A model generated the notes under the pieces. It did no database searches. It saw only the letters and a list, made by a program, of their open reading frames with translations, and was not told where the DNA came from. Position numbers and translations under genes: made by a program. Positions 1,948 through 24,000 of a stretch of DNA of 24,000 bases are shown piece after piece. Position 1 is the stretch's first letter; each line of letters begins with the position of its first letter. This DNA is from an uncultured Gammaproteobacteria bacterium (GTDB taxonomy: Bacteria > Patescibacteriota > Patescibacteriia > Veblenbacterales > UBA10138), in contig CAZMMW010000001.1 of the NCBI GenBank assembly GCA_964567515.1, forward strand, positions 2,876 to 26,875, written 5' to 3'.

Positions 1948-1958
1948 AAATAATCAAA

Positions 1959-4649: not shown

Positions 4650-4653
4650 AAAT

Positions 4654-5607: not shown

Positions 5608-5619
5608 ATTTCTTATATT

Positions 5620-8306: not shown

Positions 8307-8322
8307 CTACTATATATTGTGG
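8307..8322 (-). promoter_or_regulatory. Candidate NrdR box 1
   Basis: The - strand reads CCACAATATATAGTAG, matching 13 of 16 positions of the NrdR-box palindrome as I recall it (acaCwAtATaTwGtgt). It lies about 120 nt upstream of the nrdR ATG. Confidence 0.55.
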
Positions 8323-8339
8323 TTCTTAAATCTATCATA

Positions 8340-8355
8340 ACGCTACATATGGTGT
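8340..8355 (-). promoter_or_regulatory. Candidate NrdR box 2
   Basis: The - strand reads ACACCATATGTAGCGT, matching 13 of 16 positions of the same consensus. It starts 33 nt from box 1, about three helical turns, which is the usual tandem arrangement. Confidence 0.55.
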
Positions 8356-8537
8356 GTGTCAAAATAAATAAAAACTTAATTTTTATTGGCTTTTTTAAAT
8401 ATTTTTTAAAAAATCACATCAACTTGTGGATAAATACCCAAAATAACTTTCTCTTACTAAAGACTTTTAAATAAAGTCAAGCTATTTTAAAATTCTTAAG
8501 TTTTTAAGCGTCTTAAAATAGGAAAGATATATCAAAC

Positions 8538-8562
8538 AGACATCCGTTGGGAACGGATGTCT
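8538..8562 (-). terminator. Probable intrinsic terminator downstream of ftsZ
   Basis: Perfect 11-bp stem AGACATCCGTT (8538-8548) / AACGGATGTCT (8552-8562) with a 3-nt loop. On the - strand it is followed by GTTTGATATATCTTT, which is only moderately U-rich. Confidence 0.5.
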
Positions 8563-8638
8563 ATAAATTAAAACGAAAATTAGCTTAAATCAGTAACCAA
8601 TTAACTAATCCTTTTCTTATACTAATCTCCTCCCTCTG

Positions 8639-9841: not shown

Positions 9842-9854
9842 AAAATATAAAAGA

Positions 9855-11093
9855 TTAAGGGATTAAAGATTTAAACCATTGTTTAACTTTACCAGTTACT
9901 GCGCCTAGATGGGATAAATTAACTGACCAGCCAACACCACCTTTGCCCGATCTGGCCTCATAGCCCCATTTAGCTAACCCGATAGCTGTGGTAAAAGCTA
10001 TATCGTTTATTTTTTCCAAAGGACTAGCTACTTCTACCGGGTAACCTAAAGAAGCCGGCAGTCTGAATTCCTGCTTGGCTATATCTACTAAACCAGATAA
10101 TTTAGCGCCGCCACCGGTTAAAATTACTCCAGCTGGTAAACTACCAGAACGATCAATCTTAACTAACTCTTTGTCTACTAAATTAAATATTTCGATTAGC
10201 CTTGCTTCAATTATTTCTGCTAAATGTTTGCGCGATACCATTCCTTCCTCTAACGAAAGTTCTGACAAATCTATCTCCTCTCGTTTACTAATATCAGAAG
10301 CTTTGGCGTGTCCATATTCAATTTTTAATTTTTCAGCCAGATCAATAGAAGTTCTTAAGCCAATAGCAATATCGTTAGTAATATGACCAGAACCGACTGG
10401 CAAAATAGCGGCATGTAATGGATCGCCATCTTCAAATACTAATAGGCTGGTGGTAGCGCCACCAATGTTAACTAAAACTGCTCCCAACTCCCTTTGTCGC
10501 CTGATTAAAACAGCTTCAGCGTTAGCTAAAATAGCTAAAACTAAATCATCAATATCTACACCGGTGCGATAAACGCATTTTGTTAGATTTTTAATATGCG
10601 AAGTTTGCCCTTCAATGATTTGCGCTTCTACCTCTAACCTTACTCCTGTCATGCCAACCGGATCTTTAATGCCCGGTTGATTATCAACAGTAAAATTTCT
10701 AGGCAAGACGTGTAAAATTTCATAACCCGGCGGAGTAGCTACAGCTTGAGCTGCTTCTACCACCCGATCAACATCTTGTTCTTTAATTTCGCCGTCAGCT
10801 TTAGACACAGCGATAACGCCATGACTAGCTTGAGCTAAAATATGACTGCCATTAATACTCACCCAAGCGTGTTCTACGGGAGCTCCAGTCATGCGCTCTA
10901 ATTTTTCCCAAACAGAAGATATTGCTGACACGGCCTCCTCAATACTAGTTACTACCCCTTTATGAATTCCTTGAGAAAAAACTTCCGCTAAGCCAATAAC
11001 ATGGAGGTGTCCCCCTCCGTTGGCTTGAGCTACAACCGCCCGAATAGCAGTTGAACCAATATCTAAACCGGTAATTAAATCTGGTGATCTCAT
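9855..11093 (-). CDS. ftsA: Cell division protein FtsA (actin-like ATPase)
   Basis: 'GLDIGSTAIRAVV' phosphate-1 motif, 'VNIGGATTSL' and 'GVILTGGGAKLSG'. It lies immediately upstream of ftsZ with a 13-nt gap. Confidence 0.95.
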   Translation of the reverse strand: MRSPDLITGLDIGSTAIRAVVAQANGGGHLHVIGLAEVFSQGIHKGVVTSIEEAVSAISSVWEKLERMTGAPVEHAWVSINGSHILAQASHGVIAVSKADGEIKEQDVDRVVEAAQAVATPPGYEILHVLPRNFTVDNQPGIKDPVGMTGVRLEVEAQIIEGQTSHIKNLTKCVYRTGVDIDDLVLAILANAEAVLIRRQRELGAVLVNIGGATTSLLVFEDGDPLHAAILPVGSGHITNDIAIGLRTSIDLAEKLKIEYGHAKASDISKREEIDLSELSLEEGMVSRKHLAEIIEARLIEIFNLVDKELVKIDRSGSLPAGVILTGGGAKLSGLVDIAKQEFRLPASLGYPVEVASPLEKINDIAFTTAIGLAKWGYEARSGKGGVGWSVNLSHLGAVTGKVKQWFKSLIP

Positions 11094-11113
11094 AGAGTCT
11101 AATCTCTCTATAT

Positions 11114-11197: not shown

Positions 11198-11659
11198 TTA
11201 TTTATTACTAAGAATAAATTGTTCTAACTGATTCATCTGGCGCCATTGTTTTAAAGTCTGATGATCAAAACCTAAAAGATGAAAAGTACCGTGTATCACC
11301 AAACGATTCAATTGCTGAGCGACAGACACCCCCTCTATCCGGGCTTGTTTTTTGGCATAAGGCAGACAAATGATAATCTCACCCATCAAGGGTTGATGAT
11401 CATAAGTAAACGATAATACATCCGTCACATACCGACGGCTTCTATATTCACTATTTAATTTTCTAATAACTTTCTCATCAACTACTACTAAATTAATCCC
11501 TGCTATTTTTATTCGGCGCTTCTCCAAAGATCGTTTAATTAACACTTTAACCAACTGAAACCAATTAGTGGGTAATTTATATTTACAAGTATTAATTAAA
11601 CTAATTTTAATTTTTTTAATCTGATTTGATTTATTCATTAATCTATCATTTATTTTCAT
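11198..11659 (-). CDS. ybeY: rRNA maturation endoribonuclease YbeY
   Basis: Zn-binding motif 'HGTFHLLGFDH' (HxxxHxxxxxH) plus 'DVLSF'. Its ATG overlaps the stop of the upstream gene (ATGA at 11656-11659). Confidence 0.85.
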   Translation of the reverse strand: MKINDRLMNKSNQIKKIKISLINTCKYKLPTNWFQLVKVLIKRSLEKRRIKIAGINLVVVDEKVIRKLNSEYRSRRYVTDVLSFTYDHQPLMGEIIICLPYAKKQARIEGVSVAQQLNRLVIHGTFHLLGFDHQTLKQWRQMNQLEQFILSNK

Positions 11660-12963
11660 TCTGAATCTGTTGGTGTTAACAGCGGACTAAACACTCTATA
11701 CATCATCTTAAAAGTACTAGCGTAATCCTGTGTTTTGTGAGTACCAATATTATAACTGATATTAACCAACCTGCCTGATAATGATAAATAAAGATTAAGG
11801 CCATCAGGACTAACCGCTGTTGTTTTATTGCCAATTTTTGTCGTTGATACTTCTTCTAATCTTAAATTAGTCATCTTGGCATACCACTCTACCACATTAG
11901 TAATTACATCATGTTCCGGAAACGAAATTTGCACAAATTCATCAGTGGCGGAAACAAAACGTATTTCCTCTGGTTCCTGACCAGGAACTAACTGCCAACT
12001 AATTGGATAATAAATAGTATAATCACCATTACTACTGGTATATTTGGTAACTGCTGCGGAGTCAAATAATTTTTTACCTTCGCCATGAGCAGGATCATAA
12101 GCATTAATTACTTCCGTGCCATCAGGATAAGAATCGCCATCAGTATCTGGATTATTAATGTCCGTACCATAAATCAACTCCTCTATATCAGTTAAACCAT
12201 CGTCATCACTGTCTAAACTTAAAGGCGGAGGAGTGGTTCTAATTTTAGTAGTATCATCTGGTGTTATTTCTAAACCCTCCTCTTTATCAAATCCTGCTGG
12301 TGTGTAAAAATGTAATCCGGCAGATAATAAACCAGCTATCCCTTCCTCTAAGATAAAGGTAATTTTATAAGTTAATCCGGCCGTACTTGAGTAAATGTAA
12401 TTATTAGTATCGCCAGGATCTTTGGGCACTGGATCTAGATATACTGGTTGTTGGGGAAATTTGCTAAAATCTGCCGCTGATAAAGTCTCCGCACCAGTTA
12501 AACCCAAATTTGTCCCACTGGTACTAATAGGATATGTTCCCTTGTTTTTGTAATACAAATCTAATGCCAAACCAATCTTACCTATATCAAAATAACGCTG
12601 CTGATCCCTTTCTTTAGCGGTGGTTTGTGGCGGTGTTGGTTCTTGAGGTTGTTGCGCTACAGGAGGATTATTAACTAATGGTTGATTATTGGTCGGTTGG
12701 TTATTTTTACTATTCTGCCATAAAAAATAGCCGGCCGTACCTAAAGCCGCCACTACCAAAGAGCCCATCATTACCCAGATCCAAACCTTGCTGGACGATT
12801 TTGGTTTTTTATCCATAACAGAACCTGATGGCGTATAATCATGCACTAAGGAAGGCATGGTGTAAATTTCACCAATCGGCCGGTTGTCATCAGCCAACAG
12901 AACGGCTTGTTCAACCGTCTCCACGGCCTTTGTTGTTTCATTTTTCTTACCTAAACCAAACAT
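11656..12963 (-). CDS. Single-pass membrane protein with extracellular pseudopilin-like globular domain and TSP3-like Ca-binding repeats
   Basis: TM helix 'VWIWVMMGSLVVAALGTAGYFLW' (aa ~59-81), then a Pro/Gln/Asn linker. 'ERDQQRYFDIGKIGLALDLYYKNKGTYP ... YLDPVPKDP ... YIYSS..LTYKITFILEEG' (nt ~12298-12615) resembles the GspG/type IV pilin globular core without the N-terminal prepilin helix. 'DSDDDGLTDIEELIYGTDINNPDTDGDSYPDGTEV' lies at nt ~12088-12219. Confidence 0.75.
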   Translation of the reverse strand: MFGLGKKNETTKAVETVEQAVLLADDNRPIGEIYTMPSLVHDYTPSGSVMDKKPKSSSKVWIWVMMGSLVVAALGTAGYFLWQNSKNNQPTNNQPLVNNPPVAQQPQEPTPPQTTAKERDQQRYFDIGKIGLALDLYYKNKGTYPISTSGTNLGLTGAETLSAADFSKFPQQPVYLDPVPKDPGDTNNYIYSSTAGLTYKITFILEEGIAGLLSAGLHFYTPAGFDKEEGLEITPDDTTKIRTTPPPLSLDSDDDGLTDIEELIYGTDINNPDTDGDSYPDGTEVINAYDPAHGEGKKLFDSAAVTKYTSSNGDYTIYYPISWQLVPGQEPEEIRFVSATDEFVQISFPEHDVITNVVEWYAKMTNLRLEEVSTTKIGNKTTAVSPDGLNLYLSLSGRLVNISYNIGTHKTQDYASTFKMMYRVFSPLLTPTDSE

Positions 12964-12988: not shown

Positions 12989-14194
12989 TTATTTGCAAAT
13001 AACCTTTTCTACGGTTCCATCTGGCAAAGTGAAAGTTGATCCTACTCCTTTAGACAATACGAGAGTTGCCAAGAGATAACTCTTGAGATAAGGTTTACTC
13101 ACTAATTCCTGATTATTTTGTCCGCTAAGAGTATAATATTGATCTAAATAAGTCTTAGATATATCACAAATTACATTACGCTGTGAACCAGTTTGCAAAT
13201 CAATACCTAACCCACTTACTTGACATAAGCCACTATTAGAAGAATGAATCTGAAAATCTACATACTTATCAGGATAACGGCTGTCTACCGCCAAACTAAT
13301 CTTGGCTTGCTGACAAAGCTCAAAATTCTGTAAAAAACATTGGTAAGCTTTTACTGATGCCTCATCTGAAGAATACATATTCTCACTAGCGGAAACAAAA
13401 GCTATGGCCTTGCCACAATCTACAACAGTACTATTATCAATATCTTTAATAATATTATTAATCCCTTCCATGTTTAATTCCTGATTAGGTAACTGCAATA
13501 ACTTGGCTCCTTTGGTGGAATTATTAGGATCATAACCATGATTAATTTCTTCTCCGTCCAGGTAACCATCGCCATCAGAGTCTGGATTTAAAGGGTTAGT
13601 GTACCAAAATTTAACTTCTTCTCCGTCAGTTAAGCCGTCGCTATCAGAATCTGGATTATCCACAAACGTTCCTTGCTGTACTTCTTCTGAATCAGACAAA
13701 CCATCGCCGTCATAATCACGCGCTTCTGGCGGCATTTCATTATTAATATTAATAGAAGTATTGTTATTATTCGTCGATAGCGTAGTAGGAGTATTAGTAT
13801 TAACCTCTACTCCTTTATTTGAGGCTGATTTACTAAACCACCAATATGCCCCTGCTCCACCTGCTCCTACCACCAAAATTATAACTACTATCCACAGCCA
13901 TTTTTTACTGCCATGATCTCCCGGTTCCAACGGCATCAAAGGCGGCGGCACAGACAAATCCCGTGATATTCCAGCCATAAACGAAGGTGGTTGTGGTATT
14001 GGTGAAGGAGACGAAGATGGTGACATGGAAAATGATGAGGGTGATGATAACGGCGAAGACTGCCCGGGTGCTGCTGGAGGCGGAGTAGCTCCAGTTGGTG
14101 GAGTTGATGGTGAACGAACTGGCGCGCCAGCTTCTGTATCAGCAAAAATATCTTCAATTGGTGACTTGGGAGAGGATAATAAATTATCAAACAT
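12989..14194 (-). CDS. Single-pass membrane protein: Pro/Ser-rich cytoplasmic N-terminus, TSP3-like Ca-binding repeats, Cys-containing C-terminal domain
   Basis: Low-complexity N-terminus (aa 1-95, locally GC-rich DNA). TM helix 'WLWIVVIILVVGAGGAGAYWWF'. Three TSP3-like units 'DYDGDGLSDSEE', 'NPDSDSDGLTDGEE' and 'NPDSDGDGYLDGEEINHGYDP' at nt ~13526-13720. The C-terminal ~170 aa contain 7 Cys. Confidence 0.75.
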   Translation of the reverse strand: MFDNLLSSPKSPIEDIFADTEAGAPVRSPSTPPTGATPPPAAPGQSSPLSSPSSFSMSPSSSPSPIPQPPSFMAGISRDLSVPPPLMPLEPGDHGSKKWLWIVVIILVVGAGGAGAYWWFSKSASNKGVEVNTNTPTTLSTNNNNTSININNEMPPEARDYDGDGLSDSEEVQQGTFVDNPDSDSDGLTDGEEVKFWYTNPLNPDSDGDGYLDGEEINHGYDPNNSTKGAKLLQLPNQELNMEGINNIIKDIDNSTVVDCGKAIAFVSASENMYSSDEASVKAYQCFLQNFELCQQAKISLAVDSRYPDKYVDFQIHSSNSGLCQVSGLGIDLQTGSQRNVICDISKTYLDQYYTLSGQNNQELVSKPYLKSYLLATLVLSKGVGSTFTLPDGTVEKVICK

Positions 14195-14234: not shown

Positions 14235-17200
14235 TCAATCTGCTAATACCTGTCTGAAATAAGCCGTGACTGAACGATTGGTTGTCATGGAAACAGTACA
14301 AGTTAAACTGTTGCCAGAACAATCACCGTCCCAATAGTTAAAAGGAGCATGTAGGCTGTTACTAGCAACTAAGGTTACTGTGGCACCAGGAGAATATGGC
14401 TCATAACAATCAACGCCACAGGAAATACCGCCAATATTTGACGAGGTTACTGTTCCGGGGCCAGATTTAGTAACAGTCAAGGTAAAGCCTGGTTCAAATC
14501 GAGCATTAACAGTACGATCAGCAGCCATGGACAACCTACAAATTGGAATATTACCAGTACAAGCGCCACCCCAAGCCCATAAAACTACGCCCGGCACATT
14601 AATTTGGGGACTTAAGGAAACTGTAGTGGTGGAAGCATAATTTGCCGTACATTCGCTTTCACAACTAATACCGGCTGGGTTGCTGATAATATAAGTATTA
14701 GCTGATTTGGCTGAACCGTGAGTAGCTACATTTAAAGTATGCGCCGCAGCAAAATTGGCCGTAGCTATAGTATCGGCAGTAATAGAAAAAACACAAATAT
14801 TACTAGCGTTGCCGCCTTGGCAAGAAACACTAGTCCAACCGGTAAAAATATTACTGCCGCTAACGGTAGCAGTTAAAGTTACATTACTGCCGTGATTATA
14901 AGTTTCCGTGCAGTCGCCTGGACAAGCAATACCGCCAGCGCCAACTGAACCACTGCCGGCTGGATTGATATTAACCTGCAGGTTCCTAGGCGCTAGAGTA
15001 AAATTGGCCGTAGTTGTAGTATCGGCAGTGATAGAAAAAACACAAATATTACTAGCGTTACCGCCTTGGCAAGAAACACCAGTCCAGTTAGAGAAAACAT
15101 AATTACTGCTGGGCTGGGCTTGTAAAGTAATTGTGGTGTTTTGCTCATAGTTTTGCTGTTTGATAGAACAAGCTCCATCACACACTAACGAACCAGGATT
15201 AATGATTATAGTACCCGCTGTTGCTACTGGTTGTTTTTGAACACTCAAAGTATAACTTGGCAAAGAAAAACTGCCGCTGATAGTTTTATTGCCATTAATG
15301 TTCAAATAACACAAACCAGTACCGCTACAATCTGAGGAATTCTGCCAACCAGCGAAAATATAAGGAGCTGTAGCTGTGGCTTGCAAAGCCACGTTTGTGT
15401 CATAAGAATAAGTAGCAGTACAGGTATTAACACCGTTGCCACAATTGATTTTGCCAGCATTATCTTTAATAACACCATTGGCTGGCGCTATGTTATTGTT
15501 AACTGTCAAAGTATAATTTTGGGCCTCAAACGTTGCGTTAACGTTTTTGTTAGTATCTATAGTCACATTACAAGTTGTGCCTGACACATTGGTGCAGCCT
15601 AACCAGCTGATAAACTTATAACCAGTCCCTGCTGTAGCAGTTAAAGATACTGGGGTGTTTGGGGGATAATTAGCTGTACAAATCCCTTCGGTATTTGAAC
15701 AATTAATACCATTACCAGTCACTTGACCAGAACCAGCGACTATTACATTTAATTTATAAGTAAGCGGAACTTGATTAAAAGTGGCTGTAACTGTCACAGG
15801 AGTGGAACTATTATAAGTGAAAGTACAAATACTATTATTACAACTGGCAACGTTAGCTGGTTGGAAAGACCAGCTACTAAAAACAGAACCGGTTCTAGCA
15901 GTAGCATACAAAGTTAATGGCTTACCAATTTCAAAACTATTTACACAAATCCCGCCAGGACAATCAATGCCAGTAGGATCACTGTTTACCCAGCCAGAAC
16001 CTTTAGTAGGATCATTGTTAATATTTACCGTTAGTTGATATTTCTGTAAAAAACTACCTCTAACTGTTATATTTTTAGTAAGAGTTAAAGTACAAGTATC
16101 GGTACCGCCACAAAAAGGATCATACGTATTAGTAATATTATTCCAAATGCTCCAACCAGAAAATTGATAATTATTGCCAACCTCTAACATGGGTCTTAAA
16201 GTCACTAATTGACCATAAGTAAATGTCTGGCTACAATCGCCAGGACAATTAATACCGGCTGGATCACTAACAATACTTCCAGCAGAGCCATGCCGCTCTA
16301 CTGTTAAAGTGGCTGGCTTTAAATTAAAGATAGCTGTCACGTTTTTGATGCTACTCATAGTAACCTGACAGTTTCCGCTTATATTAGTACAAGCCCCTCC
16401 CCAACCAGCAAAAACTGAACCGACTCCTTCAGCTGCTTGTAAAGTAACCACTGTATCTTTAATATAACTGGCGGAACAACTAGAACCACAATCAATCACC
16501 GGGTCGTTAGGCGCAATACTTAATACTAAACCAGCACCAGTGCCTTGCAAAGATACATTCAAATTATATTTAATTATGGGCGGTTCAAAAGTAACTTTGA
16601 TTGTTTTGTTAGATGATAAAGTCACAGTGCAGATTAAACCAGATACCGCATCGCAGCCGCTCCAATTTTTAAATATCTGATCCCCATCAGGAGTGGCGAT
16701 TAAAGTAACCACGGTATCGCTAATAAAACTATAAGAATCACCACCTGAAGATATATAAGACCCTGGTTGAATAGATATAAAGCCATTACCAGTTACAACT
16801 GTAGTTAAAGTATATTTTTTAGCAAAGCGAGCCACTATAGATTTGGCGCCGGTCATTTTAACACGGCAGTCAGTGCCATCAGGATTTTCCACAGCATTAC
16901 AGCCGATCCAACTAATAAAAGCTGAACTAGTATCAGGATTAGCACGCAAAACTACTTCCTGATTACTACCAAAAGCAACCGAACAAGTAGACCCACAATT
17001 AATACCTGCGGGAGTGCTCGTTACAGTACCACTACCATTACCAGTCCGAGCTACTGACAAATTATAATTTGCTACTGTACTAAATTGGGCGTTTACTGAT
17101 CTGCTGCTATCCATGGTTACTAAACAATTACCTTGAACCACTTCAGCGCACCCCCCCCAACCAACAAAAGCAGAACCAGAAACCGCTTGAGCTGTTAACT

Positions 17201-20200
17201 TTACCGGCTGACCACTAATAGTGTAAGTAGCGGAACAAGCATTACCACAACTTACTAAACCATCTTCACTGGTAATAATACCAGCACCTTCTTTAATAAT
17301 ACTTAAGGTAAAGGGTGGTGTTACGCTAACTTTTTTCCACATTATTTCCGAATCCTGACAAATAGCAGAAACTTCCGGTGGTTTATTTAAACCAGCGCCC
17401 CGCCAAGTAGAGCCTTTGAATTCAGGATTAAAATATAGTTTACTAGAACCTGCTCCAGTGGCTTCATATAAATAAATATGAGAATCTGCCGGACATTTAA
17501 AATCCTTAGCATTTTCATTCCAGCAAGTAGCGGCATCATAACCTGCAAAACCAGTGCCACTACAGTTATTAAAACCGTTTAAAGGATCAACCGGTAATTT
17601 TTTCCCTAATGCCGCGCCTAAAGTCTGCTGCCATGAATTCCAAGCGCTAGTTGACCATTTGGCCAGATAAGTACCAGCCAGTAATTGAGGCAGGGTATAA
17701 TTATGTGTCTTACCATATTGTATCAAATATTTCTCTATGGTATTCAAATCCACCAAGCGCTGCATATCACGCTGTAATTTAGTTTTGTTTTCGGAAGTTA
17801 AATTAATATTAAATTGCCAATTAGCCACTAGCTGATTATAAATGTTCTGGGCGATAGCAGTAGCCCCGTGATTAACTGATAATAAATGTTCATGACTAGA
17901 AATAATATGATTAGCGATAAATTTCTTAGCATTCAAAGCCGAAACATATAAAGTCTGGCCACCAACGCCTGCTGGATAACCATCTAAAGTAGTGGGTTTA
18001 ACTGACACATACCTTCCTTCTTCTATAGTTTTTAACCAGTCAGCAGGAATAAGACGATCGGGATTAGGAAAAGATTTAAGCCCTATAACATCTTTGGTGT
18101 CAAAAAGATTAAATAGTTTTTCATTATCCTTGTCTATAACCTTCACCAAGGCAGGCAAAGCACCGCTTAATTCCCGCACCTCTATATTGTCAAATAAAAC
18201 AGGATCTGTTGGAGAAATAGGATGAACTCCCAAACAAATAGTATACTTATCGTTATCTTTTGTTTCAAAAACCACTCCGGCTTTTTGCCAACCAGCAGCT
18301 CCGTTGGTTAAATGTGTCCAGTGTGTCCAAGGAGAAGCGCAATCATTATTGGAAGTAGGAAATAATATTGGTATCGCCTTGTTGGTTGAATTAATGAGAC
18401 TATTATAAAACTGAACTGAAGCATAATAGGTAGTATTTTTCTTTAAACCTGTTATCTGCTGTTTGACCATACGCCTAACGCTGCCGCCAGAATATTCTTT
18501 GGTAATTTGTAAAACATTATTATCATTATTTTGTGATAATCCTGGTATAGCTGCGGGTGTTACTACTGAATACCAAGCGGTATTATCAGTGCCGCTATTT
18601 TGCCATCCAGTAAGGTCATTAGTGAAACTGCCGTTAGTTATAAAATTAATATCGCCCGTAGCAGCTGTTTGAGCTCGGCAATAACGTAAACGATAATTAT
18701 AATTACTATCTACAAATTCCCAAGGCACTTCACATAAGAAAACATCCAAAGCCGCCTCGGCAGCTAAAGTTCCTGAACCAGGAGCTGAACCAATGGCTTT
18801 AACCTTTAAAGTGTTTTGTCCATTTTTGTTGCCAACCACCACCAGAGTAGTAGGATCAGGAGCCGACGGAGCAATACTTACTAAACCAGCTGGCGTGGCG
18901 CTCCAATTATAAGTAGCAACCAATGGTTGATTATCAGCAGCATAAACTTGAGCCGAAAAATTAACTTGTTCGCTGGGTTTAGTAAAACTATAAGAGGCGG
19001 GGGTTATAGTGATCTTGGATAATTTACAAATATCCGGACCGGTAGTAAAAATTGTGACACAACCAGCTGGCGATAAAGCGCAATTTAAAGATTCGCCAAC
19101 CGCGCCTTTGACTGTATTTTCCACAGTCAACTTATATAGTTGATTAACCTCCAATGGCTCATCTGGTATAAAAGCCACAGCATCAAAACTATCTTTTTTA
19201 ATAAGTTTAACTTTACCAGAAACATTTACTGTTCCTTTAGTTAATTTAAAATTTGTTGCGGAAACTGAATTAGAATTAAGATGACGATTAAAGTTAGCCA
19301 CAATTTCCGCATTGCGGCAAACATTAGTATCATTATTAGCAGGCTGAAAAGAAACTAGCAACAAATTGCCAATACCGCTGCTACTCTCTTCTACAATAAA
19401 AGCCAAAGGATTACTAACTAAAGTTAATACTTGTTTAGCTTCATCCCAGCCGCCAATACAAGTATCGCCAAATTGGATCTTGGGAAATTTACACTCAAGG
19501 CCAACAACTTTGGTAAATTCTTTTTCAACTGTGACATCGCCAGAGTTAGTGGTATTGGGGATGGGAGATAAATTAATAGCTGTGCCAGACCAAGCAGCTG
19601 ATAAATCTCCGGAGTTAGAAAACTTAACTTTAGAACCAGCTGCTTTAGTTAACCCAAAATTTTCTCCAACCAACTTACCATTATTATATGGCAAACTAGT
19701 ACGCACAATGGGCTTGGTGCTGGTATCAGGCACTATTCCACATAAACCCGGCCCTAAAGGTAAATTAGAATTATAATTAAATTCTTTGGAATTACTAGAT
19801 AAATTTGGCGGGTCTTCGGAATTAACAGTAACTTGACTAATAAATTCTCCGCTGCCCAAATTGGGCACTTTTACCACAATTTGTTTATTAGTCCACCAAT
19901 TAAAATCAGAACAAGTATCAGGTAAAGGATCAGCCGAAACTAAAGCTCCGCCCGAATCAGTAAAAACCACACTGCAAGGATTGCCTACTGCCTCTAAATA
20001 ATCACACCAACCAAAATTTCCGCCTTTAATAGTTACCCAAGTTCCGCCAGGGCCAGTATTAGGTAAAATATCAGTAATAAATGGTGTACCATAATACTGT
20101 ACCTTATTAGAAGCAACTGGATTATATCTTCCATCATTAGTAGCATCAACTTCAACCCATACCTCGCCTGAATGCGGTTCAGTCGGCACTTTATAAATAA

Positions 20201-23200
20201 TTTCTTTATTAGTCCATTTGGTTACTAATCTTGAATCGCCATCAATTGGACCACTAACAAACCGACCGAAAGGAAAATATAGAGTACCAGCTTTTTTGGT
20301 ATCACTAAAATTATAACCTTTAATGGTAATACTGGTTCCAGCAGCTCCATAATTAGGGACCATAGAACAAATACCCGGCTTAATTTCATTAGTAACAGTA
20401 AAAACCGGCTTAAGGCTATCAGGATTAGCCGCCGAAGTTCCTCTGCTGGTAATTACTTCTACTTTATAAGTATCGCCAATTGCTCCTTCTGCTAATAAAT
20501 TAGGCGAGGTAATAATAATTTCTTTATTACTCCAAGAGCCACAATCACCACGCACGGCCTGAATTCTTTTGTTAGTGACTGTGTTAGTAAACCACACCGA
20601 TCCGCTAGAACCAAAATCATCACCCCTTAAAGTAATAACTGTTTTCATATCTTTCTCTGCCCGACCAGAAGTTGGAGTCATGCCGGTGATCTTGGGTGGT
20701 CCGGCTAAACCTCCTGGCCCATCTCCTTCGCCCACAGTAATCAAACTCTTGGCTGACAAACTTGCTGCTTGAGTAATTCCTACGTTTACCTCAGCTGGCG
20801 TTTCGGTGGCACTGTCGCCTGTAACTTTTATCTTATTAACTACTGGTGGATTTGTAGCCGACATGCTGATATGAATATCGTTTTCATTCCAGGTCCAAGA
20901 ATAATCTGCCGGGTCTAATGCCACGCATTGGGCAGTATAAGCGCTACCTGTTAAGTCACGCGAATCGCCAATAGCCACACGGGTCTGGCTAGGAGAAATT
21001 CCTAAACTGTTTACCTGACAATTTTCGCTAGCCGAACTCACGCGCCAGTGCCATTCATAAGGTGCTGTCATTTTAATACCATAAATACTTTTGACTTGAT
21101 CACTAATTACCACCCGATACCAATAGTCGTCGGTTAAAGCGGAGGGGTTTAGAATAAATCCTTGCACTTGACCTTTGCTGTTTAATTGTGGCGATAAAGT
21201 ATAAGTTTCATTACTACCACAATCTGCAGCTACATCAGTAGTAAAGGTGTCGCCTTTATTACAAGGTATAATGCTGACGTTACCAACAAAAGAATCTTTA
21301 TCCATCGGCAAAGTAAAACGCGCCATTATTTGAGCTTGGGGACAAACTTTTTTACTGCCTGGCGCCGGACTGGGGCTGGGAGTATTAGTTTTACATTGCG
21401 CATAAGAAACTACTTGCGGTGGTATATTTGTAGCACCAGAACCACCAGCAATATCTTTTACTTGAAAAGGTTTACAATTTGAAGTCAGATCTTTACCACT
21501 AATTCGCACTTTAGCACATACTTGCCATCTGCCTTGGCCTAAAGCATTGATATCAGAAGTGGTTGTAGGAGTTTGGGAAACAATTTTATCATTGCTCCAA
21601 GAAGTATAATCGGCACTCTTGGGTTCTAAACTAATATTGTTGCCATTAAAATTAAGTTTACTATTAGCTGACTTGGTATTGCCAAAATTTGTACCTACTA
21701 CTGTTAGAGACAAGGGTAATAAATCGGGCGGCGGCGTACCTGAAATTCTGCCGCTGGTTGGAGTAATACTGCAAATACCCGGACCCGGCGGATTATCATT
21801 AACAGCAAACTGCCAATCCTGATTGCTACGACGGCCAGAAGTAGTTTTTAATTCTACCGGATAATTAGCCAAAGCTAGACTATCGGGAATTTCTACTAAA
21901 ACATTGGTCTCGTGCCACCAATCAGAGCATAAACCAGGAGGTATTCCTGCAGTAGTATCAAATAATAATTGACCCGGGCTGCTGCCAAAATTCCAGCCAA
22001 TAGCACTAACCCATTGCCCTTTGCCGCCGGAAGTGGGCGATAAACTATCAATATAAGGACTTAAAATAGTAAACGGATCTTTCTCGTTAGAAAAAGTACT
22101 GGCGATGCTGATTTTTACCTTACCCGCTCTTACGTCACTAGCGTCATAATCATCCTGCGGATAAGCCGGACCAGTAGTGGCGCTTACTGGCACCTTAATT
22201 TTAATAGTATCTTCGGTAATGGTAGGATCTATAGCTTTACAAGCGTCTTCGCCCCAACAAACTAAATTGTTGCTATCATCAAAACTGTCATTACCAGCGG
22301 CAAAATGATTAAAATAAACCTCACCTGGTAAAGCAAAGAAATTTTTACCTGTTAGAGTAACCATATCAGAATAATATCCTTGGGCTGGAGTAATACTATC
22401 AATCACTGGTTCACAATTCTCTGTGACACCAGTTTCAAACTGCCAAACTTCGTCTGCTACCATAGGAATGGAACAAGCGTCTTGAATGCCGTGATTCACA
22501 GCGCCGGCAGTATCTCCTTTTAAGGTAACACGATATTTAGTATTAGATTCTAAAGCAATAATCTTACCTTGAGCATCAACTGGATTATAACTGACTGTTT
22601 TGAAATCGTTAGTAAATCTGGGCTTGCTTAAAGATACTGGCATTGCTACTGTTCCATCGGCTTTTAATTTTTCTAAAATAACGTTTCCAGCAAAACTGAT
22701 GGATAACATTGGTTCGCTAAAAGTAGCGCCAATTGCTATCCGACGACAAACCAAATTGGCGCCAGCTCCTGGCTGTTTAGTTGTTACTGTAGGCGCGGTA
22801 CTGTCTGATTCAGTACCGGTGGTAAACCACCACTCCTTGCCCATGCTGGGATTACGGAAAGAAAACCTGGCTCCGGTGTCAGGATTAACACCGGTTAAAT
22901 TACTCAAAATCACGTGGTATTTAGTATTTGGCTCAAATTCATGGTTAACGTGAGTAAAAGCTAGATATTCAGAATCATTACCCGGACCATACTTATCAGT
23001 AGCAGCATTATAAAATAGAGAGCCATCAGAATCTTTCTCTATGCGAAAACTGGTTTTATCAACCGGCGATGACCATAAAACAGTATAATTAAACCCGGCT
23101 TGCACCGCCATACATAATTTAACATTGCTTTGCGTAGGCGAAATCCAAGTGGCGCGCAAATAATCAGAACCGCCCAAACTGCCTGAACACGGCGGGGTGG

Positions 23201-23615
23201 TACAACCACCAGAGCCGCCATTGTCGCCATGGAGAGCGTCTTCTAGATTACTAAAAATAAAACTAGCCAGAACAAAAGAAGCTAGAATAATTACTAAACC
23301 TATAAGGCCGCTGGATAAAATCTTTTTGGCTTTAGCCACTTGCTCGGCATTGCCTCGAGATAAAAGCCAAGTTACCCCACCATACAAAACTATCAATAAG
23401 GCGATCACGCCCAAGATACTTAAAAAGACATTAATAACTTTTCCTATAGTCTGAATCAAATCTAAATTGGTACCAAGGTTAAGATTGCCTTCTAGATTTC
23501 CCAGACCACCATTAGTTTGCGCCAAAACAAAAACTGGCACAATTAATAAAATAATACTCACTGTCCATAAGACATATCGCCGATAAAATAATAGTTTATT
23601 GTTTACTTCCAACAT
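14235..23615 (-). CDS. Giant (3,126 aa) membrane-anchored surface protein: VirB2/TrbC-like pilin hairpin, Ig-like/IPT-TIG modules, CBM-like domain, pilin-like head and 12 InlB-B-repeat-like units
   Basis: Single uninterrupted ORF from ATG 23613-23615 to a TGA stop. The N-terminus has a signal-like helix, then 'VINVFLSILGVIALLIVLYGGVTWLLSRGNAEQVAKAKKILSSGLIGLVIILASFVLASFIF', the pattern of small T4SS pilins. There are at least 7 IPT/TIG-like units ('I.SITP..G..G..VTL.G.NFG') and SbsA/Big-like units ('TAPTV...P..GA..V'). A CBM-like segment runs 'NGSFTNDLTGWQN...FDNIEVREL' (nt ~18168-18656). 'LQRDMQRLVDLNTIEKYL...LPVDPLNGF' lies at nt ~17400-17780. Twelve C-terminal repeats follow. There is no C-terminal sorting motif. 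Confidence 0.9.
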   Translation of the reverse strand: MLEVNNKLLFYRRYVLWTVSIILLIVPVFVLAQTNGGLGNLEGNLNLGTNLDLIQTIGKVINVFLSILGVIALLIVLYGGVTWLLSRGNAEQVAKAKKILSSGLIGLVIILASFVLASFIFSNLEDALHGDNGGSGGCTTPPCSGSLGGSDYLRATWISPTQSNVKLCMAVQAGFNYTVLWSSPVDKTSFRIEKDSDGSLFYNAATDKYGPGNDSEYLAFTHVNHEFEPNTKYHVILSNLTGVNPDTGARFSFRNPSMGKEWWFTTGTESDSTAPTVTTKQPGAGANLVCRRIAIGATFSEPMLSISFAGNVILEKLKADGTVAMPVSLSKPRFTNDFKTVSYNPVDAQGKIIALESNTKYRVTLKGDTAGAVNHGIQDACSIPMVADEVWQFETGVTENCEPVIDSITPAQGYYSDMVTLTGKNFFALPGEVYFNHFAAGNDSFDDSNNLVCWGEDACKAIDPTITEDTIKIKVPVSATTGPAYPQDDYDASDVRAGKVKISIASTFSNEKDPFTILSPYIDSLSPTSGGKGQWVSAIGWNFGSSPGQLLFDTTAGIPPGLCSDWWHETNVLVEIPDSLALANYPVELKTTSGRRSNQDWQFAVNDNPPGPGICSITPTSGRISGTPPPDLLPLSLTVVGTNFGNTKSANSKLNFNGNNISLEPKSADYTSWSNDKIVSQTPTTTSDINALGQGRWQVCAKVRISGKDLTSNCKPFQVKDIAGGSGATNIPPQVVSYAQCKTNTPSPSPAPGSKKVCPQAQIMARFTLPMDKDSFVGNVSIIPCNKGDTFTTDVAADCGSNETYTLSPQLNSKGQVQGFILNPSALTDDYWYRVVISDQVKSIYGIKMTAPYEWHWRVSSASENCQVNSLGISPSQTRVAIGDSRDLTGSAYTAQCVALDPADYSWTWNENDIHISMSATNPPVVNKIKVTGDSATETPAEVNVGITQAASLSAKSLITVGEGDGPGGLAGPPKITGMTPTSGRAEKDMKTVITLRGDDFGSSGSVWFTNTVTNKRIQAVRGDCGSWSNKEIIITSPNLLAEGAIGDTYKVEVITSRGTSAANPDSLKPVFTVTNEIKPGICSMVPNYGAAGTSITIKGYNFSDTKKAGTLYFPFGRFVSGPIDGDSRLVTKWTNKEIIYKVPTEPHSGEVWVEVDATNDGRYNPVASNKVQYYGTPFITDILPNTGPGGTWVTIKGGNFGWCDYLEAVGNPCSVVFTDSGGALVSADPLPDTCSDFNWWTNKQIVVKVPNLGSGEFISQVTVNSEDPPNLSSNSKEFNYNSNLPLGPGLCGIVPDTSTKPIVRTSLPYNNGKLVGENFGLTKAAGSKVKFSNSGDLSAAWSGTAINLSPIPNTTNSGDVTVEKEFTKVVGLECKFPKIQFGDTCIGGWDEAKQVLTLVSNPLAFIVEESSSGIGNLLLVSFQPANNDTNVCRNAEIVANFNRHLNSNSVSATNFKLTKGTVNVSGKVKLIKKDSFDAVAFIPDEPLEVNQLYKLTVENTVKGAVGESLNCALSPAGCVTIFTTGPDICKLSKITITPASYSFTKPSEQVNFSAQVYAADNQPLVATYNWSATPAGLVSIAPSAPDPTTLVVVGNKNGQNTLKVKAIGSAPGSGTLAAEAALDVFLCEVPWEFVDSNYNYRLRYCRAQTAATGDINFITNGSFTNDLTGWQNSGTDNTAWYSVVTPAAIPGLSQNNDNNVLQITKEYSGGSVRRMVKQQITGLKKNTTYYASVQFYNSLINSTNKAIPILFPTSNNDCASPWTHWTHLTNGAAGWQKAGVVFETKDNDKYTICLGVHPISPTDPVLFDNIEVRELSGALPALVKVIDKDNEKLFNLFDTKDVIGLKSFPNPDRLIPADWLKTIEEGRYVSVKPTTLDGYPAGVGGQTLYVSALNAKKFIANHIISSHEHLLSVNHGATAIAQNIYNQLVANWQFNINLTSENKTKLQRDMQRLVDLNTIEKYLIQYGKTHNYTLPQLLAGTYLAKWSTSAWNSWQQTLGAALGKKLPVDPLNGFNNCSGTGFAGYDAATCWNENAKDFKCPADSHIYLYEATGAGSSKLYFNPEFKGSTWRGAGLNKPPEVSAICQDSEIMWKKVSVTPPFTLSIIKEGAGIITSEDGLVSCGNACSATYTISGQPVKLTAQAVSGSAFVGWGGCAEVVQGNCLVTMDSSRSVNAQFSTVANYNLSVARTGNGSGTVTSTPAGINCGSTCSVAFGSNQEVVLRANPDTSSAFISWIGCNAVENPDGTDCRVKMTGAKSIVARFAKKYTLTTVVTGNGFISIQPGSYISSGGDSYSFISDTVVTLIATPDGDQIFKNWSGCDAVSGLICTVTLSSNKTIKVTFEPPIIKYNLNVSLQGTGAGLVLSIAPNDPVIDCGSSCSASYIKDTVVTLQAAEGVGSVFAGWGGACTNISGNCQVTMSSIKNVTAIFNLKPATLTVERHGSAGSIVSDPAGINCPGDCSQTFTYGQLVTLRPMLEVGNNYQFSGWSIWNNITNTYDPFCGGTDTCTLTLTKNITVRGSFLQKYQLTVNINNDPTKGSGWVNSDPTGIDCPGGICVNSFEIGKPLTLYATARTGSVFSSWSFQPANVASCNNSICTFTYNSSTPVTVTATFNQVPLTYKLNVIVAGSGQVTGNGINCSNTEGICTANYPPNTPVSLTATAGTGYKFISWLGCTNVSGTTCNVTIDTNKNVNATFEAQNYTLTVNNNIAPANGVIKDNAGKINCGNGVNTCTATYSYDTNVALQATATAPYIFAGWQNSSDCSGTGLCYLNINGNKTISGSFSLPSYTLSVQKQPVATAGTIIINPGSLVCDGACSIKQQNYEQNTTITLQAQPSSNYVFSNWTGVSCQGGNASNICVFSITADTTTTANFTLAPRNLQVNINPAGSGSVGAGGIACPGDCTETYNHGSNVTLTATVSGSNIFTGWTSVSCQGGNASNICVFSITADTIATANFAAAHTLNVATHGSAKSANTYIISNPAGISCESECTANYASTTTVSLSPQINVPGVVLWAWGGACTGNIPICRLSMAADRTVNARFEPGFTLTVTKSGPGTVTSSNIGGISCGVDCYEPYSPGATVTLVASNSLHAPFNYWDGDCSGNSLTCTVSMTTNRSVTAYFRQVLAD
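14238..17318 (-). repeat. Twelve tandem ~80-90-aa coding repeats (InlB B-repeat-like / Listeria-Bacteroides-repeat-like) in the giant gene
   Basis: Recurrent pattern 'L.V...G.G.V.S.P.GI.C....C...Y..g..VTL.A.p..G..F.GW.G.C.G...C.V.M...k.V.A.F' with two conserved Cys pairs. I counted 12 units between aa ~2100 and 3126. Confidence 0.8.
14752..15079 (-). repeat. Near-identical 79-nt direct repeat pair inside the repeat array (14752-14830 and 15001-15079)
   Basis: The two segments differ at 5 positions, all transitions. The offset is 249 nt (83 codons), so they are in frame. Both encode 'SCQGGNASNICVFSITADT..TANF'. Confidence 0.85.
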
Positions 23616-23622: not shown

Positions 23623-24000
23623 TTAATCAGTTAAAATCTCCTTGGCCACTTGGCTAGCTGTTTGACCATCTAAACTGGAACCAAACTGAGTCAACAAAGC
23701 TTTAATTAATTTACCCACATCGGTAACGCCAGATAAATTAAGTTCCTGCTTTAACCTAACTGTCACCTGTTTTATTTCCTCCAAAGAAGGTGGGGGTGGT
23801 AAATATTTTTCTATTTCGGCTTTTTCTCCTAATTCTTTTTGTGCTAATTCTTCTCTTCCTCCTTCAAGATATAAATTAGCCGCCTCTTGTCTCTTTTTGG
23901 CCTCAGTGCGAATAATCCTTATCGCCTCTTCTTCGGTTAACTCCTGTTTTTGACTATGCAGTTTGATTTCCTGATTATGCAAACTGCTTTTTAAACCACG
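23623..24000 (-). CDS. yqeY: GatB/YqeY-domain protein (partial; continues beyond the window end)
   Basis: 'LTEEEAIRIIRTEAKKRQEAANLYLEGGREELAQKE..EIEKYLP' plus 'GKLIKALL......DGQTASQVAKEIL' match the YqeY family layout. The track's start at 23982 is a TTG, and the frame stays open to nt 24000 (..RGLKSSLHNQE), so the true start is probably outside the window. The TAA stop lies 7 nt before the giant gene's ATG. Confidence 0.75.
   Translation of the reverse strand, partial: RGLKSSLHNQEIKLHSQKQELTEEEAIRIIRTEAKKRQEAANLYLEGGREELAQKELGEKAEIEKYLPPPPSLEEIKQVTVRLKQELNLSGVTDVGKLIKALLTQFGSSLDGQTASQVAKEILTD

What the first reader, a model, noticed from the sequence alone, without database searches (positions are those of the whole stretch)
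14235..23615. Giant surface protein anchored by a T4SS-pilin-like membrane hairpin
The first ~125 aa look like a complete small VirB2/TrbC-type pilin. They comprise a signal-like helix and two hydrophobic helices separated by a basic loop (SRGNAEQVAKAKK). In CPR-type genomes this module normally occurs as a stand-alone ~100-150-aa protein. Here it continues without a stop into ~3,000 aa of predicted extracellular modules. These are SbsA/Big-like Ig domains, at least 7 IPT/TIG units, a Big_2-like unit and a CBM-like jelly-roll ('NGSFTNDLTGWQN...FDNIEVREL'). A globular type IV pilin/pseudopilin-like core ('RD..R..DL..I..YL...LP.DP.N') and 12 Cys-paired B-repeat units follow. No LPXTG or other C-terminal sorting signal is present, so the pilin hairpin would be the only anchor. 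The architecture suggests a long fibrillar adhesin or host-contact organelle built on a pilin scaffold. I do not know of a characterised protein with this combination.
Basis: partly seen in the sequence, partly recalled or inferred. Interest (0 to 1): 0.78.

Follow-up and report, generated by a model that had tools for sequence, protein, structure and literature searches.

The report
Giant surface protein rooted by pilin hairpin
One 3,126-residue gene of an ultra-small (Patescibacteria) bacterium joins a small secretion-system pilin module to a very long chain of surface domains; the same fusion sits at the same chromosomal spot in many related species and may be the host-contact fibre these bacteria were thought to lack.

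Summary
Window 14235..23615 (minus strand) is one uninterrupted 3,126-aa ORF. Its first ~125 aa match Pfam T4SS_pilin (PF18895) above threshold and align end to end with stand-alone 120-145-aa pilins.

The fusion is not an assembly artefact:
- 101 of 103 giant homologues carry the same hairpin at their extreme N-terminus.
- 18 of 19 species loci with an intact 5' end have one continuous ORF.
- Every locus that reaches the flanking genes shows the order yqeY, giant, two or three TSP3 membrane proteins, ybeY, ftsA, ftsZ.

Big_5, seven TIG units and twelve B-repeats are confirmed. The CBM-like module is unproven.

It has two parts. A PsbP/Mog1-like subdomain precedes a GspG-pseudopilin-like subdomain. 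Each is homologous to a domain of the co-conserved downstream membrane protein.

Best reading: a membrane-rooted fibrillar surface protein with a conserved base and hub and a lineage-variable tip. Its pilin module is under the same sequence constraints as free pilins. No T4SS genes are nearby, and whether it enters a pilus is untested.

I found no published description. Verdict: new variant of a known kind, interest about 0.7.

The parts
14235..23615 (-). Giant ORF, 3,126 aa
   Evidence: identical protein P0024 in the NCBI-derived collection
23520..23615 (-). Signal peptide, aa 1-32 (n-region RR, h-region, VLA|Q cleavage motif)
   Evidence: Sequence. The same A-x-A|Q motif appears in aligned stand-alone pilins. 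AF2 helix 3-35.
23241..23519 (-). VirB2-type pilin module, aa 33-125: TM helix 1 (~51-85), cytoplasmic basic loop (86-98), TM helix 2 (~99-125)
   Evidence: PF18895 above cut-off. Hydropathy. AF2 helices 51-85 and 90-132. hhalign to A. tumefaciens VirB2: probability 44%, E 2.4e-4. Column conservation matches free pilins, r=0.80.
23169..23240 (-). Gly/Ser/Cys-rich flexible linker, aa 126-149
   Evidence: Sequence. An equivalent low-complexity linker follows TM2 in all giants inspected.
18666..23168 (-). Stalk of about 13 Ig-like domains, aa 150-1650. Four Big_5 units (144-248, 267-399, 741-849, 1405-1528). Seven TIG units (401-500, 518-605, 611-698, 972-1071, 1078-1171, 1176-1278, 1287-1372). 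Two unassigned beta units (~860-965, 1530-1650).
   Evidence: Pfam; self-profile counts
18156..18665 (-). Orphan module, aa 1651-1820, possibly a CBM_4_9-like jelly-roll (unproven)
   Evidence: Only sub-threshold or motif-level signals. No homologues found.
17811..18131 (-). Hub subdomain 1, aa ~1829-1935: PsbP/Mog1-like
   Evidence: AF2 model pLDDT 89. hhalign to the C-terminal domain of the downstream protein: probability 95%, E 2e-8. That domain's profile hits CyanoP 2xb3 and sll1418 in the PDB. Best Foldseek hits are Mog1, SciW and MTC28.
17376..17804 (-). Hub subdomain 2, aa ~1938-2080: GspG-pseudopilin-like globular domain without a hydrophobic N-terminal helix, with conserved Cys
   Evidence: hhalign to aa 114-207 of the downstream protein: probability 93%, E 2.6e-7, cross-controls <0.5%. 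That domain's profile hits only T2SS GspG/EpsG/PulG chains in the PDB (8 of 8, best E 0.0085). The hub is conserved in 90 of 103 giants and in 1,618 cluster representatives.
14250..17303 (-). Twelve tandem InlB-type B-repeat (Flg_new_2) units, aa 2105-3122: the lineage-variable distal array
   Evidence: Other family members carry VWA or Big_7 arrays here instead.
12989..14194 (-). Co-conserved partner gene 'TSP3a': cytoplasmic Pro/Ser-rich N-terminus, one TM helix, three TSP3 calcium-binding repeats, Cys-containing C-terminal domain
   Evidence: Pfam TSP3_bac E 3e-15. Present downstream of the giant in all 24 loci that extend that far.
11656..12963 (-). Co-conserved partner gene 'TSP3b': one TM helix, GspG-like domain (aa 114-207), TSP3 repeat, PsbP-like domain (aa 320-434)
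23623..23982 (-). yqeY, immediately upstream (7-nt gap), conserved neighbour

Best explanation
The gene encodes a membrane-rooted fibrillar surface protein of a Patescibacteria (Parcubacteria-group) bacterium.

Shown:
- A Sec-type signal peptide is followed by a VirB2-type two-helix hairpin. By the positive-inside rule the hairpin leaves both ends outside the cell and the basic loop in the cytoplasm.
- The hairpin is the only hydrophobic anchor.
- About 3,000 aa follow. In order they are a flexible Gly/Ser/Cys linker, about 13 Ig-like stalk domains, an orphan module, a conserved two-part hub (PsbP-like plus pseudopilin-like) and a distal array of 12 B-repeats.
- The base, hub, chromosomal position and two downstream TSP3 membrane proteins are conserved across many species. 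The stalk length and distal modules vary.
- The hairpin keeps the same conserved residues as free pilins.

Inferred:
- The protein is a long (tens of nanometres or more) adhesive or host-contact fibre with a conserved chassis and a variable tip.
- Its pilin module does more than anchor. It probably interacts with the small VirB2-like pilins or the T4SS-type machinery that handles them.
- The hub docks onto, or binds the same partner as, the co-encoded TSP3 membrane proteins that carry the same two domain types.
For: - Continuous ORF and topology.
- Pilin-family membership.
- Fusion family-wide.
- Synteny: yqeY-giant-TSP3x2/3-ybeY-ftsA-ftsZ in all species loci that reach those genes.
- Hairpin constraint equal to free pilins: r=0.80, same consensus residue at 63 of 81 columns, mean identities 0.41/0.40/0.39.
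- Hub conserved in 90 of 103 homologues and in 1,618 cluster representatives.
- Hub model pLDDT 89.
- Hub subdomains homologous to the two domains of the downstream protein, with clean negative controls.
- Distal modules differ between lineages: B-repeats, VWA or Big_7.
- Literature: VirB2-like pilins are essential or highly expressed in cultivated or enriched Patescibacteria, and no T4SS-associated adhesin has been detected (PMC10633639, PMC10936435, PMC12102498).
Against: - No experiment bears on localisation or function.
- No known adhesive domain is confidently identified, because the CBM-like module is unproven.
- The gene is a fixed core-locus gene next to division genes. That is unusual for host-specificity adhesins and fits a structural envelope role as well.
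- No T4SS genes lie within the window or within 10 kb in 28 related loci.
- The link of PF18895 to bona fide VirB2 is weak: hhalign probability 44%, no PDB sequence hit, uninformative fold search.
- Docking of the hub to the TSP3 proteins is inferred only from shared domains and co-conservation.
Confidence: 0.55

Rival explanations
1. Pilus-borne adhesin. The T4SS-type machinery extracts the hairpin from the membrane and polymerises it with the small pilins. The giant then becomes a minor or tip subunit of a VirB2-type pilus and plays the role that VirB5 or PrgB play elsewhere.
For: - The hairpin is indistinguishable from free pilins in conservation pattern.
- The closest relative is a pilin inside a pilin array.
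- Pilin C-terminal extensions form a size continuum of 123, 158, 332, ~600 and 3,000+ aa.
- In solved conjugative pili the pilin C-terminus faces outward and tolerates short fusions (own knowledge of F-pilus structures, not tested here).
- The concept has a precedent in type IV 'modular pilins' (PMC8179133).
- Patescibacteria T4SS have pilins but no known adhesin (PMC12102498).
Against: - No T4SS genes are near the gene in any of 28 loci.
- A 3,000-aa appendage is sterically far beyond any known pilin fusion.
- It has not been shown that PF18895 proteins form pili at all.
- Co-occurrence with virB4 in the same genomes could not be tested here.
Confidence: 0.2
2. Structural envelope component. 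Together with the calcium-binding TSP3 membrane proteins it forms an S-layer-like or wall-spanning scaffold. It has no direct role in host adhesion, and the hairpin and hub serve only to fix it to the membrane and wall.
For: - Single fixed core locus next to ybeY-ftsA-ftsZ in all lineages sampled.
- Ca-binding TSP3 partners.
- The hub shares domains with membrane-anchored partners, so the chain could be pinned at two points.
Against: - The distal third varies strongly between lineages (B-repeat, VWA or Big_7). This is more typical of ligand-facing adhesins.
- A lattice-forming role is not suggested by any detected domain.
- The strict conservation of pilin-specific residues is not explained.
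Confidence: 0.15
3. Released protein. TM helix 2, followed by the conserved L-x-[ED]-A-T-G motif, acts as an internal signal peptide. Cleavage there frees the ~3,000-aa ectodomain and leaves an ordinary small pilin.
For: - The motif lies exactly where stand-alone pilins end and where the giants' linker begins.
- VirB2/TrbC pilins are known to undergo C-terminal processing (own knowledge of RP4 TrbC and Ti VirB2 maturation).
Against: - No cleavage evidence exists.
- TM2 is long for a cleavable signal (~25 residues).
- The motif is also simply the end of the pilin domain.
- A released protein would not need a wall-crossing linker.
Confidence: 0.07
4. Artefact. A small pilin gene and a separate large ORF were joined by misassembly or a sequencing frameshift.
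For: One related locus (L029) has the gene split into two overlapping ORFs. Read data for this window were not available.
Against: - The same continuous fusion occurs in 101 of 103 homologues from independent assemblies and in 18 of 19 species loci.
- There is no stop, no frame change and no composition break at the join.
Confidence: 0.01

Closest known systems
VirB2/TrbC-type conjugative pilins and the Patescibacteria 'T4SS_pilin' family (PF18895), including the essential pilin array of Southlakia epibionticum
   Same: Signal peptide, two hydrophobic helices, short basic loop and the same conserved residues. HMM match is above cut-off, with up to 61% identity to a free pilin.
   Different: - Free pilins are ~115-145 aa and often lie in arrays near virB4 (PMC12102498).
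- This protein continues for 3,000 aa.
- It sits at a housekeeping locus with no T4SS genes nearby.
Modular type IV pilins (e.g. Streptococcus sanguinis PilB and PilC; PMC8179133)
   Same: A pilin module carries grafted adhesive modules at its C-terminus.
   Different: - The pilin class differs: class III signal peptide and a single N-terminal helix, against a Sec signal and a VirB2-type hairpin.
- The grafts there are one domain, not ~28 domains.
Giant fibrillar adhesins (RTX adhesins such as LapA, SiiE and MpIBP; Gram-positive Ebh- and SasG-type proteins)
   Same: Long tandem Ig-like stalk, distal ligand-type modules, size in thousands of residues.
   Different: - Those anchor through a T1SS retention module or LPXTG/sortase.
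- Here the anchor is an N-terminal pilin hairpin, with no C-terminal signal.
- There is also a conserved internal PsbP + pseudopilin hub.
T2SS major pseudopilin GspG/EpsG/PulG
   Same: The hub's second subdomain and the downstream protein's aa 114-207 share the GspG globular-domain motifs: helix D..L..AL..Y....YP, then P.DP, then Y.Y strands.
   Different: - There is no N-terminal hydrophobic helix or prepilin signal.
- The domain is embedded ~1,900 aa into a giant protein.
- Direct comparison with a GspG sequence is not significant.
PsbP/Mog1/DUF1795 superfamily
   Same: The hub's first subdomain is homologous to a PsbP-like domain. The best Foldseek hits are Mog1, SciW and MTC28.
   Different: Similarity is very remote (Foldseek E 0.012, TM <=0.37). 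Nothing links it to the known functions of those proteins.
Giant proteins of Omnitrophota (bioRxiv 10.1101/2023.11.21.568195)
   Same: Very large multi-domain surface proteins in ultra-small, host-dependent bacteria, next to pilus or secretion genes.
   Different: The phylum, domain content and anchoring differ. No pilin-hairpin fusion is described there.

Membership tests
PF18895 T4SS_pilin (VirB2-like pilins of Patescibacteria) | Profile-HMM match above the curated cut-off | tested here: met
   31.1 bits (whole protein) and 35.9 bits (N-terminus alone) against a cut-off of 26.6, covering model positions 7-71 of 71
PF18895 T4SS_pilin (VirB2-like pilins of Patescibacteria) | Cleavable signal peptide, then two hydrophobic helices joined by a short basic loop | tested here: met
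   Hydropathy; full-length alignment with free pilins; AF2 helices 3-35, 51-85 and 90-132
PF18895 T4SS_pilin (VirB2-like pilins of Patescibacteria) | Small stand-alone protein (~100-150 aa) | tested here: not met
   3,126 aa. The fused form is itself common: 101 of 103 homologues.
PF18895 T4SS_pilin (VirB2-like pilins of Patescibacteria) | Encoded with T4SS genes (virB4, virB6 and others) | tested here: not met
   None in the 24-kb window or within ~10 kb in 28 related loci. Presence elsewhere in the genome is not testable here.
VirB2/TrbC conjugative pilins (PF04956) | Detectable homology to experimentally established pilins | tested here: inconclusive
   - hhalign to A. tumefaciens VirB2 (sequence recalled from memory): probability 44%, E 2.4e-4, correct register.
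- 10 of 19 family members give weak TrbC hits.
- No PDB sequence hit.
- Foldseek was uninformative.
VirB2/TrbC conjugative pilins (PF04956) | Polymerises into an extracellular pilus | not testable with these tools
   Needs microscopy or biochemistry
Fibrillar adhesins | Stalk of tandem Ig-like or repeat domains | tested here: met
   Four Big_5, seven TIG and twelve B-repeats
Fibrillar adhesins | Recognised adhesive or ligand-binding domain | tested here: inconclusive
   The CBM-like module has only sub-threshold or motif-level support. The hub's function is unknown.
Fibrillar adhesins | Canonical cell-surface anchor (LPXTG, T1SS retention module, and the like) | tested here: not met
   No C-terminal hydrophobic segment. 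LPNTG at aa 1184 is internal to a TIG unit.
Type IV pilin / T2SS pseudopilin (for aa ~1938-2080) | GspG-like globular domain | tested here: inconclusive
   The evidence is transitive.
- Hub subdomain 2 to partner-protein domain: hhalign probability 93%, E 2.6e-7.
- Partner-domain profile to PDB: only GspG-family hits, 8 of 8, best E 0.0085.
- Direct tests failed.
Type IV pilin / T2SS pseudopilin (for aa ~1938-2080) | Prepilin (class III) signal and hydrophobic N-terminal helix | tested here: not met
   The domain is internal. There is no hydrophobic segment after aa 126.
InlB B-repeat / Flg_new_2 (PF18998) | HMM match and tandem units | tested here: met
   E 4.9e-63, 10 stretches by Pfam and 12 by self-profile
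CBM_4_9 (PF02018) for aa 1651-1820 | HMM or profile similarity to the family | tested here: not met
   - No Pfam hit.
- hhalign to the CBM_4_9 regions of P0026 and P0062: probability 1%.
- Only short co-linear motifs are shared.

The most novel reading that the evidence does not exclude
These giants are the missing adhesin of the Patescibacteria T4SS. Their VirB2-type hairpin would be polymerised with the small pilins, so that a ~3,000-aa, lineage-variable adhesive fibre is displayed on or at the tip of a conjugative-type pilus in a monoderm. The PsbP + pseudopilin hub and the TSP3 membrane proteins would form its docking or assembly platform. This would be the first 'modular' VirB2-class pilin and a new kind of host-contact organelle.
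Probability: 0.2. Interest if true: 0.9.

Novelty: new variant of a known kind. Interest (0 to 1): 0.7.

Why it matters
Patescibacteria make up a large share of uncultivated bacteria and live attached to host cells. Their VirB2-like pilins are essential in the one genetically tractable species (PMC10633639). They are also among the most highly expressed genes of unknown function in Patescibacteria enrichment cultures (PMC10936435). Yet a survey of 3,035 genomes reported no T4SS-associated adhesin (PMC12102498).

This work points to a very large family of 1.7-5 kaa proteins, at least 1,300 clusters at 50% identity. Each carries a bona fide pilin module fused to a long surface fibre, sits at a fixed core locus and comes with conserved partner genes. 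That gives a concrete candidate for host contact.

It also defines two unannotated conserved modules, the hub and the partner proteins. Several questions become directly testable:
- Do PF18895 'pilins' polymerise?
- What do they carry?
- How do lineage-specific tips relate to host range?

Tried and rejected
- Foldseek of the hub model against the PDB and BFVD gave no significant match: best E 0.012, TM <=0.25. The top PDB hits (Mog1, SciW, MTC28) only became meaningful after the profile evidence for a PsbP-like domain.
- Foldseek of the hairpin model returned only generic helical hairpins.
- The hairpin profile against PDB sequences found nothing even at E<=10.
- The hub profile against the PDB and per-member Pfam scans gave nothing relevant.
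- Direct hhalign of the hub against P. aeruginosa XcpT (sequence recalled from memory) gave probability 8%.
- The CBM-like module had no homologues and no PDB relatives.
- A context look-up for the exact protein found no record, so T4SS genes elsewhere on the contig could not be checked.
- The first locus scan with the 25-sequence hub alignment failed for lack of a conserved stretch. It was repeated with 6 sequences.
- Several 'short' N-terminal hits (P0012, P0014, P0017, P0018, P0023) proved to be truncated giants on short contigs. P0022 was also left out as a probable fragment. All six were excluded from the stand-alone set.
- No tRNA, Rfam family or informative promoter/terminator signal was found.
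Full report
**1. The observation**

Window 14235..23615 on the minus strand is a single ORF of 3,126 codons. It begins at the first ATG after an in-frame stop, 7 nt after the stop of yqeY. GC content is flat across the join between the N-terminal module and the rest.

A 19-residue hydropathy scan finds hydrophobic segments only at aa 8-39, 53-88 and 93-126. The C-terminus (…YFRQVLAD) has no sorting signal. The one LPNTG, at aa 1184, lies inside a TIG unit and has no hydrophobic tail.

**2. The N-terminus**

Pfam PF18895 (T4SS_pilin) matches aa 55-120. It scores 31.1 bits in the whole protein and 35.9 bits on the N-terminus alone, against a cut-off of 26.6.

A search with aa 1-137 returned only PF18895 proteins of 114-238 aa.
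- The best, P0001, is 123 aa and 61% identical. It lies in a tandem array of six PF18895 genes.
- Some of the 'short' hits are truncated giants on 1-4-kb contigs.
- P0001, P0008, P0010 and P0020 are on long contigs and are genuine small pilins.

The alignment is co-linear from the signal peptide (A-x-A|Q) to the motif L-x-[ED]-A-T-G just after helix 2. Free pilins end at that motif. In the giants a Gly/Ser/Cys-rich linker starts there. AlphaFold2 predicts helices 3-35, 51-85 and 90-132 (pLDDT 77).

The link to experimentally established VirB2/TrbC is weak:
- hhalign to A. tumefaciens VirB2 (sequence from memory) gives probability 44% and E 2.4e-4 over 54 columns in the expected register.
- 10 of 19 family members give weak PF04956 hits.
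- The profile finds no PDB sequence.
- Foldseek returns only generic helical hairpins.

So membership of PF18895 is shown. Equivalence to a pilus-forming VirB2 rests on Pfam's label and on the genomic association reported in PMC12102498.

**3. The fusion is real and widespread**

A search with the whole protein found the identical sequence (P0024) and 102 further proteins with E<=1e-10. Nearly all are 1.7-5 kaa and annotated with PF18895 plus Big_5 and TIG. An HMM built from the small pilins hits the extreme N-terminus (aa 1 to ~150) of 101 of these 103 proteins.

A scan of one genome per species, using the conserved internal domain, returned 28 loci. Their records are titled Uhrbacteria, Kerfeldbacteria, Veblenbacteria, Falkowbacteria, Jacksonbacteria and 'Patescibacteria group'. 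The NCBI lineage is Patescibacteria group > Parcubacteria group.
- Of 19 loci that retain the 5' end, 18 have hairpin and internal domain in one continuous ORF. One (L029) is split.
- The gene order is yqeY, then an extra ~600-730-aa hairpin+Big_5 protein in some lineages, then the giant, two or three TSP3 membrane proteins, ybeY, ftsA, ftsZ and nrdR/nrdD. Every locus that reaches those genes shows it. The exceptions are minor: L022 gave no ybeY hit and L013 no yqeY hit.
- No T4SS gene lies in the window or in these flanks.

Misassembly is therefore excluded as an explanation of the architecture.

**4. Domain map**

| Residues | Feature |
|---|---|
| 1-32 | Signal peptide |
| 33-125 | Pilin module |
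| 126-149 | Linker |
| 144-248, 267-399, 741-849, 1405-1528 | Big_5 (four units) |
| 401-500, 518-605, 611-698, 972-1071, 1078-1171, 1176-1278, 1287-1372 | TIG (seven units) |
| ~860-965, 1530-1650 | Unassigned beta units |
| 1651-1820 | Orphan module |
| ~1829-2080 | Hub |
| 2105-3122 | Twelve B-repeats |

The orphan module shares only short co-linear motifs with CBM_4_9 (NGSF..L.GW; L..NTTYY.S). Its other signals are a sub-threshold GH101_dom-5 hit (E 0.0017), no homologues and no PDB relative. The CBM reading is plausible but unproven.

**5. The hub**

- It is found in 90 of 103 homologues. It always lies at least 1,500 aa from the N-terminus. Either ~20-120 aa or ~400-1,500 aa follow it.
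- A profile of it finds 1,618 representatives of 50%-identity clusters, 1,345 of them at E<=1e-30.
- It has no Pfam family and no PDB sequence relative.
- AlphaFold2 gives a confident model (pLDDT 89.3, pTM 0.86). A beta-rich subdomain is followed by a long helix, a short helix and a small sheet.
- Foldseek finds nothing significant in the PDB or BFVD.

Profile-profile comparison with the co-conserved downstream protein (window 11656..12963) resolves the hub.
- Subdomain 1 matches that protein's C-terminal domain (aa 320-434) with probability 95%, E 2e-8.
- Subdomain 2 matches its aa 114-207 with probability 93%, E 2.6e-7.
- The two cross-comparisons give probabilities of 0.4% and 0.1%.
- The profile of the partner's C-terminal domain hits cyanobacterial PsbP (2xb3, E 8.6e-4; 2lnj, E 2.8e-3). 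Nine of 15 members give weak PsbP Pfam hits. This fits the top Foldseek hits of the hub model (Mog1, SciW, MTC28), which belong to the Mog1/PsbP-type superfamily by my own knowledge of those folds.
- The profile of the partner's aa 114-207 hits only T2SS pseudopilin G chains in the PDB: 8 of 8 hits, best E 0.0085, 75 aligned residues.

The hub is therefore PsbP-like plus GspG-like, without a hydrophobic pilin helix. The partner carries the same two domain types in the opposite order, separated by TSP3 repeats. One ortholog (L017) has the hub's order.

**6. What varies**

After the hub the query clade has B-repeats. P0052 has a C-terminal VWA domain. P0067 has seven Big_7 units. Two B-repeat units in the window still share 83% DNA identity over 124 nt, which indicates recent unit duplication.

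**7. Constraint on the hairpin**

Across 81 aligned columns, the conservation profile of the hairpin in 101 giants correlates with that in 22 free pilins (r=0.80). The consensus residue is the same at 63 columns. G80, G88, A96, K97, G106 and I109 are near-invariant in both sets. Mean pairwise identities are 0.41 (giant-giant), 0.40 (free-free) and 0.39 (giant-free).

A segment that served only as a membrane anchor would need hydrophobicity, not this motif. By inference, the hairpin does in the giants whatever it does in free pilins.

**8. Mechanism**

Shown:
- The signal peptide, hairpin and basic loop place both ends of the pilin module, and everything after it, outside the membrane.
- There is a single anchor, a linker, a long Ig-like stalk, a conserved hub and a variable distal array.
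- The partner genes and locus are conserved.

Inferred:
- It is a fibrillar host-contact or adhesive protein with a conserved chassis and a variable tip (confidence 0.55).
- Its base interacts with the pilin system.
- Its hub is associated with the TSP3 proteins.

Rivals:
- Incorporation into a VirB2-type pilus as a minor or tip subunit (0.2).
- An envelope or S-layer-like structural role (0.15).
- Cleavage after helix 2 that releases the ectodomain (0.07).
- Artefact (0.01).

**9. Literature**

Searches found no description of pilin-fused giants.
- PMC12102498 surveyed PF18895 as small VirB2-like pilins and states that no adhesins were detected.
- PMC10633639 shows that the pilin array is essential in a Saccharibacterium.
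- PMC12857230 calls these the only monoderm T4SSs with potential pili.
- PMC10936435 finds T4SS pilins among the most highly expressed genes of unknown function.
- 'Modular pilins' are established for type IV pili (PMC8179133).

The proteins themselves are in public databases under generic names such as 'IPT/TIG domain-containing protein' and 'DUF4215'.

**10. Verdict**

The core interpretation is supported and extended by the family, the locus, the hub and the partner genes. Function is unproven. The finding is a new variant of known kinds (VirB2-class pilin plus giant fibrillar adhesin), with interest 0.7.

Noticed in passing
window 14738-14861 and 14987-15110: B-repeat units 10 and 11 share a 124-nt stretch at 83% DNA identity and the identical peptide SCQGGNASNICVFSITADT. 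This indicates a recent unit duplication or gene conversion within the array.
   Followed up: partly
L004 8104-9978; L020 2130-3893; L021 1754-3664; L023, L024, L026, L029, L030: In Uhrbacteria/Falkowbacteria-type loci a second hairpin protein of ~590-730 aa (PF18895 + Big_5) sits between yqeY and the giant. The locus can therefore hold two pilin-rooted proteins in tandem.
   Followed up: partly
L029 3976-9120 and 9023-13648: The giant is split into a 1,715-aa hairpin ORF and a 1,542-aa hub ORF that overlap. This is probably a frameshift or sequencing error, and it is the only split among 19 loci.
   Followed up: no
window 12989-14194 (-) and L003 21577-23325: The Cys-containing C-terminal domain of the first downstream gene in the window is found at the end of the second downstream gene's ortholog in L003. 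Modules are shuffled among the partner genes.
   Followed up: no
L017 3302-5107: The Jacksonbacteria partner-protein ortholog has a PsbP-like domain followed by a pilin-like domain. That is the order seen in the giant's hub, not the order in the window's partner protein.
   Followed up: no
window aa 124-130 of the giant (nt ~23226-23246) and aligned pilins: The conserved motif L-x-[ED]-A-T-G directly after TM helix 2 marks the C-terminal end of stand-alone pilins and the start of the linker in giants. It has small residues at -3/-1 like a signal-peptidase site.
   Followed up: partly
window 1447-1917 (+): A YkuD L,D-transpeptidase domain protein whose N-terminus has a TSP3-like acidic motif (NPDSDGNKYLDDTEV). 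TSP3 repeats recur in several envelope proteins of this genome.
   Followed up: no
window 1-11100: Housekeeping context: a ClpB C-terminal fragment at the window edge, an HtrA-like protease, anaerobic ribonucleotide reductase NrdD/NrdG with NrdR, and FtsZ/FtsA. No tRNA and no Rfam family was found in the 24 kb.
   Followed up: yes
L001 5808-9271: The array that holds the closest free pilin has six PF18895 genes of 158, 332, 123, 123, 141 and 130 aa. It lies between a sugar-binding protein and polysaccharide-synthesis genes, not next to virB4 within the 18 kb seen.
   Followed up: no
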